Shown: piece after piece, positions 1 through 5,190 of the stretch
Numbering within the stretch: position 1 is the stretch's first letter
How the letters are laid out: each line of letters begins with the position of its first letter
Source of the DNA: an uncultured virus (IMG/VR IMGVR_UViG_3300032241_000856)
Taxonomy: Duplodnaviria > Heunggongvirae > Uroviricota > Caudoviricetes
Direction: 5' to 3' (one strand)
Length of the DNA stretch: 64,000 bases
Virus record (IMG/VR): IMGVR_UViG_3300032241_000856
Translations under genes and position numbers: made by a program
Notes under the pieces: generated by a model
The model's database searches: none
What the model saw: only the letters and a program-made list of their open reading frames with translations
What the model was told of the DNA's origin: nothing

Positions 1-10
1 CAAAAGGCGT

Positions 11-49
11 TATAATACTAACATCAACAGCAAACAAGGAGCGAAACTT
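11..49 (+). promoter_or_regulatory. Early promoter -10 box and conserved leader/RBS, copy 1
   Basis: TATAAT at 11-16, then ACATCAACAGCAAACAAGGAGCGAA before ATG 50; the -35 box lies outside the window. Confidence 0.75.
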
Positions 50-235
50 ATGTCAGATAAACTATATGCATTCTGCGACGCAGTCGTAGCCGTCACAGGA
101 TTCTTCCTAGTCTACGGAGTGTCAGGCACAATTGACACTGCCCCAGACAGTCAATTGTTCACATTATTGGCTATCACAATCGCAGGCCTGGGCTTGTTCT
201 TTGCAGGCGTTAATGGCTTGACAACCCGTAAGTAA
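50..235 (+). CDS. Small membrane protein (two hydrophobic segments), early gene
   Basis: 61-aa ORF with two hydrophobic stretches, own promoter and RBS. Confidence 0.75.
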   Translation: MSDKLYAFCDAVVAVTGFFLVYGVSGTIDTAPDSQLFTLLAITIAGLGLFFAGVNGLTTRK

Positions 236-277
236 GACAGTATAATAACTACTTCAACAACACACAAGGAGCGAACT
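218..277 (+). promoter_or_regulatory. Consensus sigma70 early promoter and conserved leader/RBS, copy 2
   Basis: TTGACA(218-223)-17 nt-TATAAT(241-246), then ACTTCAACAACACACAAGGAGCGAA. Confidence 0.85.
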
Positions 278-598
278 ATGGTAATAGCAGAACAAATCCG
301 TCAAGGTAAATTGTTAGCAGAGGCAGCTGGTCGTGCTATGTATGCACAGGTAGGCGAGCGTGATATGTGCGGTTTTGGTTGGGTTGAGGTCTACGTAGAT
401 CGCACTAACTCAAAGCAGGCCAAAGAGCTGATCGCCGCAGGCTTCCGCAAGGACTACAAACCAAAATGCCTTAGCATGTGGGATCCAGCTGGCATTCCTA
501 CACAGAGCGTATCAGTTAAGGAAGCGGGTGCAAGAGCCTACGCAGACTACTTGAGAGCACTGGGCTTGAACGCCTACGCAGGCAGCCGTTTAGATTGA
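278..598 (+). CDS. Hypothetical phage early protein
   Basis: 106-aa ORF with promoter and RBS; CGFGWV motif. Confidence 0.8.
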   Translation: MVIAEQIRQGKLLAEAAGRAMYAQVGERDMCGFGWVEVYVDRTNSKQAKELIAAGFRKDYKPKCLSMWDPAGIPTQSVSVKEAGARAYADYLRALGLNAYAGSRLD

Positions 599-653
599 CC
601 TTAAGGGGGAAACCCCTTATAATTAATACTTCAACACACACAAGGAGCGAACA
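595..653 (+). promoter_or_regulatory. Sigma70 early promoter and conserved leader/RBS, copy 3, with a hairpin in the spacer
   Basis: TTGACC(595-600)-17 nt-TATAAT(618-623); TAAGGGG-GAAA-CCCCTTA at 602-619; ACTTCAACACACACAAGGAGCGAA. Confidence 0.8.
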
Positions 654-1562
654 ATGGTTAAGGTTGTAAATTCAAGCAAGATGATGATGGCACTACAAAA
701 AGCACCCAAAGGCACTACCACTAGCCTAGAGCAGGACACAGACTATATCAAACAAAAAGAACGTGCCCTACAGGCGGAAACAGATGAACAGATTATGACT
801 CGTTTGGGCGAGCGCTTTGAGATCCTAGAAGACATGACTCGCGCTGTTAAGCGGGGCGACGTTAGGGCTATGATCGTAACAGGCCCTCCAGGCGTAGGTA
901 AGTCATTCGGCGTAGAGAAGGTGCTGAGCAAGCACGATGTGTTCGCTGATGTAGCACAGGACTCTAAGCTGAAGAAGTATGAAGTAGTCAAAGGCGCAAT
1001 GAGTGCCATTGGCTTGTATAAGAAGCTGTTTGAGTTCTCAGATAAGAAATGTATCCTAGTGTTCGATGACTGTGATAGCGTATTGATGGACGACCTGAGC
1101 CTGAACATTCTCAAAGCGGCCCTGGACAGTAATAAGAAGCGCACTATCCATTGGAACACTGACAGCAGACTCTTGCGCTCAGAAGGTGTGCCTAACAGCT
1201 TCGAGTTCAAAGGCGGTGCTATCTTTATCAGTAACATCAAGTTCGATCACGTTAAGAGCAAGAAGCTTCGCGATCACTTGGAAGCATTGGAAAGCCGTTG
1301 CCACTACTTGGACTTGACTATTGATACTACACGTGAGAAGCTGTTACGTATCAAGCAGGTAGTTAAGGACTGTGGCATGCTGGACGAGTATAAGCTAGAG
1401 GACTATCAGAAGCTAGAAGTAGTAGACTTCATTGTGGCTAATGCAGAGCGCATGCGTGAGCTTAGCCTGCGTATGGTGCTTAAGGTAGCAGACCTACGTG
1501 CTAGCATGCCCGACAAGTGGCGTAGCGTAGTAGAAGTAACCTGTATGCGTAACAGCCGCTAA
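654..1562 (+). CDS. AAA+/P-loop ATPase
   Basis: Walker A GPPGVGKS, Walker B LVFDDCD, sensor-like FISN and ALESRC arginine-finger-like motif. Confidence 0.8.
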   Translation: MVKVVNSSKMMMALQKAPKGTTTSLEQDTDYIKQKERALQAETDEQIMTRLGERFEILEDMTRAVKRGDVRAMIVTGPPGVGKSFGVEKVLSKHDVFADVAQDSKLKKYEVVKGAMSAIGLYKKLFEFSDKKCILVFDDCDSVLMDDLSLNILKAALDSNKKRTIHWNTDSRLLRSEGVPNSFEFKGGAIFISNIKFDHVKSKKLRDHLEALESRCHYLDLTIDTTREKLLRIKQVVKDCGMLDEYKLEDYQKLEVVDFIVANAERMRELSLRMVLKVADLRASMPDKWRSVVEVTCMRNSR

Positions 1563-1577
1563 GAGCTGTTGCATCTA

Positions 1578-1688
1578 GTCAGCCCAACGATTCGCTCCCG
1601 GCAAGCTGACACTCAGCGGTGAGAGATTCACCGCACTCTGCCCCTGACATAAATCCGATTCGCTCCCGGTGGTCAGGGGCTTTCTTTT
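1578..1688 (+). ncRNA. Putative structured 3'UTR/small RNA: three hairpins, two with ATTCGCTCC loops, ending in an intrinsic terminator
   Basis: Stems GTCAGC/GCTGAC (1578-1610), GCGGTGA/TCACCGC (1616-1634) and GCCCCTGAC/GTCAGGGGC (1640-1680), then TTTCTTTT; 14-mer CGATTCGCTCCCGG at 1588 and 1656. Confidence 0.65.
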
Positions 1689-1906
1689 GACCGAAGGATC
1701 GAGGTGGTGGCCGGCATTATAATATCTTTTTGATTTTAAAATGGGTGGTCGGCATGCATTTATAAAACTGTTGTCTTTTTACAACGGGCGCATGCAAAAA
1801 ATTAGGGGCTATAGACTCAAAAACCACCTCTCGAATCTGTAAGTAATTCACCACAATTTTTTACGCGGCAATTTTTTTAGCCTGCAGGACCCATTTCGGG
1901 CACAGA

Positions 1907-1932
1907 TAAAAAAGCCCTTTCTAAGAAGGGCT
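1907..1932 (-). terminator. Rho-independent terminator
   Basis: Minus strand AGCCCTT-loop-AAGGGCT followed by a T tract. Confidence 0.7.
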
Positions 1933-1981
1933 AGTGTGCGGACCTGTTCCGCTTGTTAGTTCTACAGTGATCAAATCTCGA

Positions 1982-2056
1982 TCAATTTGGCGGATTCTCA
2001 GAGTGCATGAGTTTTGTTTGGGGCTTGTGATCTAAATACTCTACAGTCATTTTCAT
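1982..2056 (-). CDS. Putative 24-aa peptide MKMTVEYLDHKPQTKLMHSENPPN
   Basis: GGAGG RBS (2061-2065), TAAATA motif (2094-2099), terminator downstream. Confidence 0.35.
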   Translation of the reverse strand: MKMTVEYLDHKPQTKLMHSENPPN

Positions 2057-2173
2057 TCATCCTCCAATACATAGTGTTAGTTCTATGTAATAGTATTTAC
2101 AGACAACACTGAGATTACACCATCAAATAGGCCTATTCTAGAGTCAGCAAAAACCATTAGGGCTATATACTGT

Positions 2174-2290
2174 ATGACTACTCTCTTAGAAAACGTTCTC
2201 TGGATTCTAGCTACATGTGTTGCTACTGTAGCTGTTGTCCCTCCCATACACTGGTTAGGCTACTGGCTCCAAGATCTCTTGGACTTATAA
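2174..2290 (+). CDS. Putative 38-aa hydrophobic peptide
   Basis: MTTLLENVLWILATCVATVAVVPPIHWLGYWLQDLLDL; TATACT just upstream. Confidence 0.35.
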   Translation: MTTLLENVLWILATCVATVAVVPPIHWLGYWLQDLLDL

Positions 2291-2331
2291 CATGTATACA
2301 CCCATTGAAGTCGATCCCGTCTTGATAGAAA

Positions 2332-2613
2332 TCATAATGTCTCTACTGTTTCCCTACAGTAGTTAGCATTATACTCAAACGATATCTGCTGTTTTGCCAG
2401 TAGAAACGTATAGGTCAGCACATGATTTTGCCCTGCTGTAGAGTAGACTGTAGAATCCGGAACTCCTAGTCCCAGTAGAAATGGTTCTCCCATAGTGCTC
2501 ATTATGTCCACTATTGATGAGTCACAGCCGTAGGTCTTAGCCGTAGTTGATTCGGGTGCGCCACTACCACAAGCTGACAGCGTAAATATTGCTATATAAA
2601 TTAAGTGTTTCAT
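2332..2613 (-). CDS. Putative lipoprotein
   Basis: From ATG 2613: MKHLIYIAIFTLSAC, a signal peptide with lipobox LSA-C; TTGCAA-18-TATACT 6 nt upstream. Confidence 0.7.
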   Translation of the reverse strand: MKHLIYIAIFTLSACGSGAPESTTAKTYGCDSSIVDIMSTMGEPFLLGLGVPDSTVYSTAGQNHVLTYTFLLAKQQISFEYNANYCRETVETL

Positions 2614-2690
2614 AGCACTAGTATACACTGCTTGCCCGTGGTCTTGCAAGGGTTGTTACTGTTGTTTACTATTGATTACTCTGTTACTGT

Positions 2691-2885
2691 ATGCATAACT
2701 ATCTACCCAGACTCATTACCGGTTTACTCAGCTTGCTACAAGCTAGTAGCTTACGAGACCGTGTCTACAGTCAAGAACAGCAGATTGAACGACTGTTACT
2801 AGCCATAGAGGACATTGAACGCATTAACGCTAACTCAACAAACCCAAATCAGCTTATAGCAGGGATCTGTAGGAGACTACAGTGA
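2691..2885 (+). CDS. Small hypothetical protein (possible coiled coil)
   Basis: 64-aa ORF with heptad-like QEQQIERLLLAIEDIERI. Confidence 0.5.
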   Translation: MHNYLPRLITGLLSLLQASSLRDRVYSQEQQIERLLLAIEDIERINANSTNPNQLIAGICRRLQ

Positions 2886-2927
2886 GTTCTACAGTATAGA
2901 GGTGCCAATCAGTAACGCTAGTTCGCG

Positions 2928-3010
2928 TTTTACCGCTTTCGCTTCGCGAGTAAAAATATTTTGCCGCTCTGCTTCGCTCTCTAAAATTTTTTCCGCTGCC
3001 GCTTACGCCC
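2928..3010. repeat. Three degenerate repeats with 30-bp period (T-tract-CCGCT-N-GCTT(A)CGC)
   Basis: GCTT at 2941, 2971 and 3001; CCGCT at 2933, 2964 and 2993; A/T tracts between units. Confidence 0.6.
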
Positions 3011-3145
3011 AGAACTCTAGTTGGGGGTGATTCACGGACAGCAAATAATAGATCCATACTACTGCTAGGATTACTGCTACGAGTGCAGAGTATTCGGGAA
3101 AAGTCCAATTTTTCATCCTGTATTTAACACTTGCTAAATAAACTC

Positions 3146-3856
3146 ATGAAGCAATACGAACAAATAATAGCTATTGGCTGTAGCTTTACCTACGGGCATG
3201 AAACTGCAGGGCCCGATCTATGGACAGTGGAAGATCCCAGTCGTGCTTGGCCCGCACATCTAGGGCAGTTACTAGATATTCCCGTGACTAATCTTGCCAT
3301 GTGTGGCGCCAGTAACGAGTGGATCTACTATAAACTCTCCAGCTATCTAATAAAAAATCCCCCAACACAGCCGTCACTTGTTCTAGTGCAATGGAGCTTG
3401 TTTGATCGTATACTGGCAATTCATCCTGAAAACAGTGCTAACTATGCCTGCGTAAGTCCCACAATGATTGAGTCGCACAGCTATGTTAACAACTATTTGC
3501 CATCTACATTTATCCGAAACTACGTAGAATATCTCTGCGTGGATCCTAGAAACGTTCTCAACACCTTGTATAATACTGTGCTCTTAGGCCAGTTGCTGTC
3601 TGCCCATGGACACGGCTTTTACTACTGGCCCGCCAACAGCTTGGCCAAGAGCTTGCCGGGTCTTAAATCTATACCCGAAATATATTGGCACATGGTAGAT
3701 GAATTTGAACGGGGATCCATAATCGACCGTAACTATGACTGGCATCCCCGGCTACACGATCGTGGCCCTAGTGGCGGGCACTTTAGCACTGAATGCCACA
3801 TGTGGTGGGCAGAACAGGTCTTTGAATACCTAAAGACCGGAAATAAAATAGCATAA
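3146..3856 (+). CDS. SGNH/GDSL hydrolase-like protein
   Basis: GCSFTYG block I, NLAMCGASNE block II, C-terminal GHFS; start reassigned to ATG 3146, 5 nt after TAAATA. Confidence 0.65.
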   Translation: MKQYEQIIAIGCSFTYGHETAGPDLWTVEDPSRAWPAHLGQLLDIPVTNLAMCGASNEWIYYKLSSYLIKNPPTQPSLVLVQWSLFDRILAIHPENSANYACVSPTMIESHSYVNNYLPSTFIRNYVEYLCVDPRNVLNTLYNTVLLGQLLSAHGHGFYYWPANSLAKSLPGLKSIPEIYWHMVDEFERGSIIDRNYDWHPRLHDRGPSGGHFSTECHMWWAEQVFEYLKTGNKIA

Positions 3857-4614: not shown

Positions 4615-5190
4615 TTAACTCAGGTTAAAGCCCATGCTAATTCGATCTTCACTGCTGAGATTTCTCTCAACTGAGTGCGTTAGCCAACTAGGGAATATGA
4701 CCAAAGTCCCAGCTTGAGCCGGGAACTTTATTCTGGTAGTGTTGTATTTGTTATCCTGCCAACCGCCCCAGGTCATTTGTATAAAGTCATTTTCCACGCG
4801 GTTATGCAACAATAGATCACCTGAGTTTTCGGGAACCTTGGACCAGTAGACAGCACTCATGGTAGACCCTGGATGGCAGTGCGCTTCGGTATAGTCGTTT
4901 GTCTCAAATATATTGACCCAGAATCCAGTGACCTTGGGCAAATGACTAAAGCCAAATTCTCCAAACACGTCTATGGACAGTTTTTCTATCAGACCGATTA
5001 GTTTTTTAGTTTCGGGCTTGGCCAGGGCGGATTTTATAATACTGCTGTTATATCCTCCGCTACGACTGGCTTTATTGCCGCCGGGATCTTCAGTTTGTCT
5101 TTCATATACTTCTTGCGAAATAATACGGGGATCAATGCTGGGTATTTCAATTGACCACACAGGTGTGGCCCATAAGTCTTGCTTTTTCAA
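4615..5190 (-). CDS. Putative 2OG-Fe(II) oxygenase (TIGR02466-like), tandem paralog
   Basis: HCH...SAVYW...FPSWLTHSV...RISMGFN. Confidence 0.85.
   Translation of the reverse strand: MKKQDLWATPVWSIEIPSIDPRIISQEVYERQTEDPGGNKASRSGGYNSSIIKSALAKPETKKLIGLIEKLSIDVFGEFGFSHLPKVTGFWVNIFETNDYTEAHCHPGSTMSAVYWSKVPENSGDLLLHNRVENDFIQMTWGGWQDNKYNTTRIKFPAQAGTLVIFPSWLTHSVERNLSSEDRISMGFNLS

What the first reader, a model, noticed from the sequence alone, without database searches (positions are those of the whole stretch)
1578..1688. Candidate phage small RNA with two loops exactly complementary to the shared early-gene RBS
Seen: three hairpins (1578-1610, 1616-1634, 1640-1680) followed by a U tract. Hairpins 1 and 3 have largely different outer stems but carry the identical 14-mer CGATTCGCTCCCGG (1588, 1656), folding as short CG clamps around the loop AUUCGCUCC. 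UUCGCUCC is the perfect 8-nt reverse complement of GGAGCGAA, the RBS of all three upstream early genes including its own host gene. Known: loop-exposed C-rich seeds pairing with SD regions are how Staphylococcus RNAIII/RsaE-type RNAs repress translation, and P1 C4 RNA is a multi-loop phage antisense RNA. Inference: a 3'UTR-derived RNA that shuts off a whole early regulon by RBS occlusion, a feedback timer for the early-to-late switch. Alternatives are 5'-3' kissing within its own mRNA, or a minus-strand decoy presenting GGAGCGAAU loops. I do not recognise it as a described family.
Basis: partly seen in the sequence, partly recalled or inferred. Interest (0 to 1): 0.9.

Follow-up and report, generated by a model that had tools for sequence, protein, structure and literature searches.

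The report
Phage RNA mirroring early ribosome sites
An uncultured large phage ends an early gene with RNA hairpins whose loops are the exact complement of a private tag on the ribosome-binding sites of its early genes; related phages changed loop and tag together, so the RNA probably turns early protein synthesis down, though this has not been tested.

Summary
Observation confirmed: three hairpins and a U tract follow an early AAA+ ATPase gene. Both 9-nt loops contain UUCGCUCC, the complement of GGAGCGAA in all three early leaders (5 matches in 64 kb, 0.81 expected). In the window's ATPase clade 65 of 67 representatives keep the loop while stems change by compensation. Loop and tag co-vary by lineage: leaders under UUCGCUCC loops carry GGAGCGA (255 of 442) and never GAGGGC; under UGCCCUC loops GAGGGC (79 of 141) and GGAGCGA only twice. 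G-U versus A-C counts favour the plus strand. In another lineage the hairpin sits behind a gene whose own leader is untagged (0 of 28) while the ATPase leader is tagged (27 of 27), pointing to action in trans. No Rfam match. Not shown: a transcript, repression, timing; a wobble test gave no support. It works like cuckoo/C4-type anti-RBS RNAs and fills the role of T4 RegB, but belongs to none of these. This scan reported the same system before on other phage genomes.

The parts
11..16 (+). -10 box of early promoter 1 (-35 lies outside the window)
   Evidence: seen
38..45 (+). RBS tag GGAGCGAA of early gene 1 (predicted target)
   Evidence: ORF 50-235, 61 aa, no PHROG or Pfam family
218..246 (+). 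sigma-70-type early promoter 2, 12 of 12 match
268..275 (+). RBS tag of early gene 2 (predicted target)
   Evidence: ORF 278-598, 106 aa, phrog_22149, unknown function
595..623 (+). sigma-70-type early promoter 3, 11 of 12 match, with a hairpin in its spacer
   Evidence: hairpin seen
644..651 (+). RBS tag of the ATPase gene (predicted target; the RNA's own host gene)
   Evidence: own leader matches at 6 nt or more in 45 of 45 class A loci
654..1562 (+). AAA+ ATPase gene, 302 aa, carrier of the 3' UTR; probably the T4 NrdC.10 family (name inferred, given by no call)
   Evidence: phrog_1250 E 5e-83; Pfam AAA above cut-off; 1307 phage records by tblastn; the model resembles RuvB and clamp-loader folds only generically, TM about 0.37
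1551..1570 (+). optional hairpin P0 over the stop codon
   Evidence: seen; similar motif in 10 of 65 class A loci
1578..1610 (+). hairpin P1 with seed loop AUUCGCUCC at 1590-1598
   Evidence: all four Watson-Crick pair types at each of stem positions 1-5 among 52 stems
1616..1634 (+). hairpin P2, variable spacer; differs or is absent in relatives
1640..1680 (+). hairpin P3 with seed loop at 1658-1666; doubles as terminator stem
   Evidence: compensatory pair types among 63 stems
1681..1688 (+). U tract, predicted 3' end (the consensus terminator scan did not call it, because of the large loop)
   Evidence: U tract in relatives; not listed

Best explanation
The stretch is a structured RNA at the 3' end of the early ATPase transcript; the + strand is the working strand. 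Its exposed loops pair with a phage-private extended Shine-Dalgarno tag (GGAG plus CGAA) in the short, unstructured leaders of many early mRNAs, the ATPase mRNA included. The 7-8 bp duplex covers the SD and blocks 30S entry. As the terminator-protected 3' end accumulates, as the tail of the mRNA or as a processed fragment, translation of tagged early genes falls: a negative feedback on the early gene class. The 3-4 letters beyond the SD core aim it at phage leaders and spare host and late RBSs. Shown here: structure, strand, complementarity, lineage-wise covariation, transfer of the hairpin to untagged genes. Inferred: the pairing itself (about 0.85), repression in trans (about 0.65), processing into a free small RNA (about 0.5), a role as early-to-late timer (about 0.4).
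For: Conservation: 56 viral stretches hold the exact double 14-mer, nearly all right behind the same ATPase; 77 of 80 metagenome loci have the loop, 2 were too short and 1 has it further downstream. Covariation (140 ATPase representatives at 95% out of 390 usable loci): class A leaders GGAGCGA 255 of 442, GAGGGC 0; class B GAGGGC 79 of 141, GGAGCGA 2; class C GGAGCAA 14 of 20; class D GAGTGAG 17 of 76, other tags 0. Tag-free test, share of leaders with 7 nt or more of perfect complement in their own 3' UTR: A 269 of 442 (shuffled UTR 0.09; B, C, D UTRs 0.06-0.07), B 84 of 152 (0.13), C 15 of 20 (0.11), D 34 of 76 (0.16); element-less loci 6 of 61 (0.09). Clamp changes on both sides around a fixed loop: CCG/CGG 70, GUG/CAC 8, CUG/CAG 6, UUG/CAA 3, CGG/CCG 2, CCA/UGG 1 of 129 loops. 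G-T versus A-C in stems: 13:2 (A), 9:1 (B), 32:1 (D). Lineage F: 30 of 34 loci carry the class A hairpin elsewhere, and the 4 misses end within 780 nt of the ATPase; carrier-gene leader tagged 0 of 28, ATPase leader 27 of 27; a second copy behind another untagged gene in 4 of 5 records. Loop-leader duplex -13.1 to -13.3 kcal/mol; leaders almost unfolded.
Against: No experiment, and no cultured member: the best cultured ATPase relative is 48% identical and lacks the element; blastn of the element found nothing real in 50,697 phage records. Independent changes of loop plus tag are few (A, B, C, D; C is one genome), and leaders within a genome may be homogenised by recombination, so leader counts are not independent. 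L210 has loops GUCGCUCC, but only 1 of 11 leaders matches at 7 nt. Wobble test: among 94 single-letter variants of the class A tag, G-U-compatible changes are not enriched (C5 to U 0; A7 to G 1 of 17; A8 to G 10 of 66). Whole-UTR folding energy favours the + strand in only 23 of 65 class A loci. No promoter upstream of the element in class A. Eight representatives next to class B have AAGGGCAC- or TAGGCAA-type leaders but no matching hairpin in the DNA held. In lineage F read-through could still place tag and hairpin on one molecule. The direction of the effect cannot be read from sequence.
Confidence: 0.65

Rival explanations
1. Mainly cis autoregulation: the 3' UTR loops fold back on the SD of the same ATPase mRNA (icaR-like). 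Other leaders share the tag because promoter-leader cassettes are copied among early genes.
For: The own leader is the most constant match: 6 nt or more in 45 of 45 class A loci versus 293 of 397 other leaders; 8 nt in 16 of 16 class D loci versus 14 of 60. In L166 only the ATPase leader carries the tag. No separate promoter. Precedent: PMC3868564 (abstract).
Against: Lineage F carries the hairpin behind genes whose own leaders are untagged (0 of 28). At 8 nt, other class A leaders match as often as the own leader (179 of 397 versus 20 of 45). The class D loop holds further seeds that match other leaders.
Confidence: 0.15
2. Pairing is real but not repressive: it shields the SD region from a nuclease, stores early mRNAs, or brings a factor or ribosome to tagged leaders.
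For: All comparative evidence shows pairing potential, not its sign. GGAG in early SDs is a nuclease target in T4 (PMC3014915 passages).
Against: The duplex covers the SD core and is predicted stronger (-13 kcal/mol) than the SD/anti-SD helix (about -8, with a recalled anti-SD sequence). Known loop-to-RBS RNAs such as c4 block translation (PMC12197685 passage).
Confidence: 0.1
3. Tag and loop are two orientations of one protein-binding site on DNA (an operator near each early start plus decoy copies); the hairpins are only terminators.
For: The motif is short and sits at a fixed place behind strong promoters; the wobble test gave no RNA-specific signal. Lineage F hairpins follow a winged-helix gene (PF14090).
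Against: 3' UTR copies are always inverted and centred in the loop of a covarying clamp and stem, also in P1, which is no terminator. Stems tolerate G-U rather than A-C. The tag always contains an SD core at RBS distance from ATG.
Confidence: 0.06
4. The working RNA is the minus strand, a decoy that displays GGAGCGAAU loops.
For: Folding energy is as good or better on the minus strand in 42 of 65 class A loci.
Against: G-T versus A-C 13:2, 9:1 and 32:1; U tract on the + strand; no minus-strand promoter-like site near it.
Confidence: 0.03

Closest known systems
Cuckoo / CcsR (RSs0680, alpha-r14) sRNAs of Alphaproteobacteria (PMC4615179: abstract and section 6; PMC8034643: abstract)
   Same: [quoted passage not shown]
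   Different: The loop here is AUUCGCUCC, not CCUCCUCCC. It is phage-borne behind an AAA+ ATPase, not DUF1127; it matches a private tag of the same genome; and it changes with that tag between lineages.
c4 antisense RNA of phages P1/P7 (PMC12197685, passage)
   Same: Phage RNA whose loops pair near an RBS and block translation; the specificity differs between related phages.
   Different: c4 acts on the ant mRNA in temperate immunity. This element matches many early leaders and has no Rfam match.
T4 RegB endoribonuclease (PMC3014915 and PMC9409239, passages)
   Same: Same proposed job: inactivating early mRNAs at GGAG in the SD, its own mRNA included.
   Different: RegB is a protein nuclease helped by S1; here the agent would be an RNA that pairs with an extended tag.
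Start-associated sequences (SAS) of cluster K mycobacteriophages (PMC3203893, passages)
   Same: Repeated extended SD at starts of non-structural genes, with letters that cannot pair with 16S rRNA; four genomes have one copy in the opposite orientation; the authors left an RNA or protein partner open.
   Different: Other sequence and other phage group; no complementary hairpin RNA appears in the passages read. Here the partner is visible and co-varies.
icaR 3'-UTR/5'-UTR pairing in Staphylococcus aureus (PMC3868564, abstract and outline)
   Same: A 3' UTR motif pairs with the SD of the same mRNA and blocks initiation.
   Different: One chromosomal mRNA, in cis. Here many leaders are matched and the hairpin can sit behind untagged genes.

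Membership tests
Cuckoo / CcsR | 2-4 adjacent hairpins, variable stems, repeated loop | tested here: met
   (some class A members have a single loop: 13 of 65 by the trimmed count)
Cuckoo / CcsR | loop motif CCUCCUCCC | tested here: not met
   the loop is AUUCGCUCC in 126 of 129 and AAUCGCUCC in 3; motif
Cuckoo / CcsR | upstream DUF1127 gene, alphaproteobacterial replicon | tested here: not met
   the upstream gene is an AAA+ ATPase; the window has phage tail sheath and terminase genes
Cuckoo / CcsR | processing from a 3' UTR; Hfq binding | not testable with these tools
   only assembled contigs of RNA runs were available
C4 antisense RNA | match to an Rfam model | tested here: not met
   0 hits at gathering score in the window; no hit on the + strand element other than a chance snoRNA match at E 4.5; only tRNAs in 14 relative loci
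C4 antisense RNA | loop-exposed seeds complementary to a phage RBS region | tested here: met
C4 antisense RNA | target is an antirepressor (ant) mRNA | tested here: not met
   the three tagged window genes are two unknowns and the ATPase
icaR-type cis 3'UTR-SD pairing | 3' UTR complementary to the own SD | tested here: met
   45 of 45 (A), 16 of 18 (B), 16 of 16 (D) at 6 nt or more
icaR-type cis 3'UTR-SD pairing | action limited to the own mRNA | tested here: inconclusive
   other leaders match, and lineage F carriers are untagged, but read-through is not excluded
Cluster K SAS | repeated extended SD at starts of non-structural genes | tested here: met
   (0 of 16 GGAG-type RBSs beyond 1700 in the window carry it)
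Cluster K SAS | 13-bp consensus given in PMC3203893 | tested here: not met
   leader profile versus the consensus
RsaE / RNAIII (recalled, no paper read) | Rfam model match | tested here: not met

The most novel reading that the evidence does not exclude
A widespread group of large aquatic phages addresses its early regulon with a private, lineage-specific barcode appended to the Shine-Dalgarno sequence and reads it with a movable hairpin RNA placed in the 3' UTR of one or two early genes. Barcode and reader are recoded together between lineages. This would be an RNA-only counterpart of T4 RegB that times early shut-off, could act on co-infecting phages with the same barcode, and is a natural orthogonal, programmable translation-control pair.
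Probability: 0.45. Interest if true: 0.85.

Novelty: new variant of a known kind. Interest (0 to 1): 0.7.

Why it matters
How large lytic phages other than T4 shut their early genes off is largely open, and the phage RNAs in the review passages read act on single phage or host targets. Here one short loop is matched to tens of leaders, and the match has been recoded several times in evolution, which gives ready-made cognate and non-cognate pairs for a reporter test in a laboratory strain. It also suggests what cluster K start-associated sequences may be for. In passing, the tag marks early genes in uncultured phage genomes.

Tried and rejected
No whole genome is held for the window, so the number of tagged genes in this phage is unknown. 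Expression: four lake metatranscriptome runs with small shares were laid on 1-3200. Their contigs cover parts of 1-1391 and nothing from 1392 on, the element included. These are assembled contigs of relatives at low depth, so this neither shows nor excludes a transcript. The pattern search for more class C members gave 19 stretches, of which 1 was the known contig and 18 were unrelated repeats. The metagenome scan with the class C protein returned no second class C genome. The genome-contig scan gave one 3.6-kb contig in a Bacteroidetes MAG, cut before the 3' UTR; not taken as host evidence. Wobble-asymmetry test: no support. Strand by folding energy: uninformative for class A. Internal promoter scans (sigma-70, extended -10, late-type box) over the last 450 nt of the ATPase and 60 nt beyond: none in 65 loci, apart from 2 scattered -10-like hexamers. 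The ATPase model (pLDDT 74) and Foldseek gave only generic AAA+ matches and no link to RNA. PA5oct and RcSimone-Hastad have no such 3' UTR. The percent-paired figures (0.995 and 0.934 versus 0.45-0.47 shuffled) are inflated because stems were chosen for best pairing; only the variety of pair types is used. Labelling errors: L322 was first classed as element-less by early trimming and moved to B. L076 was classed B on one short match, has non-matching leaders, stayed in the B counts and was left out from then on. L412 was classed element-less until its hairpin was found 288 nt downstream. Rows dropped before counts: of 426 loci, 407 had the ATPase, 390 were usable and 140 were kept at 95% identity. 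Literature searches with no relevant title: 0 papers each; 1,083 papers, 30 listed, none relevant; listings only. The alignments of the 8,495 viral candidate RNAs of PMC10690425 could not be read (four tables searched without a hit), nor could the supplement of PMC5737381, so the hairpin may be catalogued there without a function.

Full report
Observation. The 131-nt stretch folds at z = -2.41, and both loops are predicted open. GGAGCGAA occurs five times in 64 kb: three times as the RBS of the genes at 50, 278 and 654, and twice inverted in the loops; 0.81 are expected. The genes at 278 and 654 have 12/12 and 11/12 sigma-70 promoters. Calling them early rests on this promoter type. The window also holds tail sheath, terminase and helicase genes, so it is a large tailed phage; its host is unknown and no whole genome is held. 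The carrier gene is an AAA+ ATPase of phrog_1250, with relatives in 1307 phage records, most of them T4-like by organism name. I take it to be the NrdC.10 family, but that name is my inference; PMC1524935 (passages) only says that nrdC.10 matches the AAA motif.

Conservation. The exact double 14-mer is in 56 viral stretches, almost all right behind the same ATPase. I collected 426 loci, of which 407 hold the ATPase, 390 were usable and 140 remain at 95% protein identity. In the ATPase tree the window's clade has 67 members: 65 with the same loop, one with UUGCUCC loops (L137) and one with GUCGCUCC loops (L210). An independent metagenome set gave the loop in 77 of 80 loci; 2 were too short and 1 has it further on. 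Stems show all four Watson-Crick pair types at most positions, and even the 2-3 bp clamp changes on both sides while the loop stays. G-T outnumbers A-C in stems by 13:2, 9:1 and 32:1, which points to the + strand; folding energy alone does not discriminate in class A.

Covariation. Four loop types go with four leader tags. Class A: loop UUCGCUCC, tag GGAGCGA in 255 of 442 promoter-proximal leaders, GAGGGC in none. Class B: UGCCCUC two to four times, GAGGGC in 79 of 141, GGAGCGA in 2. Class C (one genome): UUGCUCC three times, GGAGCAA in 14 of 20. Class D: one large loop with UCUCACUC, GAGTGAG in 17 of 76, and further seeds that fit other leaders. A test that uses no chosen tag gives the same result: leaders have 7 or more letters of perfect complement in their own 3' UTR in 61%, 55%, 75% and 45% of cases, against 9-16% for shuffled UTRs and 6-25% for UTRs of the other three classes; element-less loci give 6 of 61. 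Limits: these are few independent changes; leaders in a genome are not independent; L210 does not fit (1 of 11); G-U-compatible changes in the tag are not enriched; and eight relatives of class B have shared leader motifs without a hairpin in the DNA held.

Cis or trans. The ATPase's own leader is the most constant match: 45 of 45 in A at 6 nt, 16 of 16 in D at 8 nt. No promoter precedes the element in 65 class A loci. So autoregulation is likely. But a further set of phages (lineage F; 18 representatives) has the class A tag in 56 of 120 leaders and no hairpin directly behind the ATPase. I predicted a hairpin elsewhere and found it in 30 of 34 loci; the four misses end within 780 nt of the ATPase. 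In 28 loci it follows a winged-helix gene (PF14090) whose leader is untagged in 28 of 28, while the ATPase leader is tagged in 27 of 27. Four of five records have a second copy behind another untagged gene. In L412 a promoter-like box lies just upstream of the hairpin (one case). Read-through could still join tag and hairpin, but a module that moves between 3' UTRs and sits behind untagged genes fits action in trans best.

Mechanism. The loop pairs with 8 letters of the leader at about -13 kcal/mol, against about -8 for the SD helix with a recalled anti-SD sequence, and the leaders are nearly unfolded. The simplest reading is RBS occlusion by an accumulating, terminator-protected 3' RNA, which lowers translation of tagged early genes and of the ATPase itself, while the extra letters spare other RBSs (0 of 16 GGAG-type RBSs elsewhere in the window have them). 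Pairing, repression, processing and timing are inferred, not shown; the RNA runs at hand could not test expression. The ATPase model shows only a generic AAA+ fold, so no role for the protein in this system can be given.

Comparison. No Rfam family matches the element or its class B, C and D forms. In build it is closest to cuckoo/CcsR RNAs, in pairing mode to c4 and icaR, in target design to cluster K SAS, and in proposed role to T4 RegB. It fails a defining test for cuckoo, C4 and SAS. Searches showed no paper on this system, judged from listings; the unreadable supplements of PMC10690425 and PMC5737381 may list the hairpin. This scan has reported the same ATPase-linked system, and similar ones in unrelated phages, several times before; those are unchecked notes and are not counted as support.

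Verdict. A real, conserved RNA element with strong comparative evidence for pairing with early RBS tags. New variant of a known kind; interest 0.7. Confidence in trans repression 0.65.

Noticed in passing
window 2056-1982, minus strand: Conserved 24-codon ORF with a late-type box and a GGAGG RBS upstream, a structured 3' region and a terminator at 1932-1913; the same small ORF is in L156, L181, L189, L180, L301 and L140.
   Followed up: partly
window 1700-1900: Non-coding stretch behind the terminator with G-rich and T-rich blocks, conserved in many class A loci; function unknown, perhaps origin-related.
   Followed up: no
window 602-618: Hairpin inside the spacer of the ATPase promoter, at the end of the upstream gene; like the promoter-stem-loop units named in earlier scan notes.
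   Followed up: no
L412 5778-6120: Small Cys-rich ORF behind the ATPase, then a promoter-like box, one class A hairpin and a terminator: possibly a stand-alone small RNA gene.
   Followed up: partly
L295 (PA5oct) about 4846-4890: The 3' arm of the hairpin behind the ATPase has 8 letters complementary to the gene's own leader, but inside a stem; may be chance.
   Followed up: no
L437, behind the winged-helix gene: A further hairpin with UUCGCUCC in its loop and a different clamp.
   Followed up: no
L332-L370, L413-L424: Relatives of class B whose ATPase is followed by protein genes; leaders share AAGGGCAC- or TAGGCAA-type motifs, and no complementary hairpin was seen in the DNA held.
   Followed up: partly
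window 2691-2885 and 2910-3010: A 64-aa ORF and a following non-coding repeat-like stretch are conserved in several relatives; no PHROG or Pfam family for the ORF.
   Followed up: no
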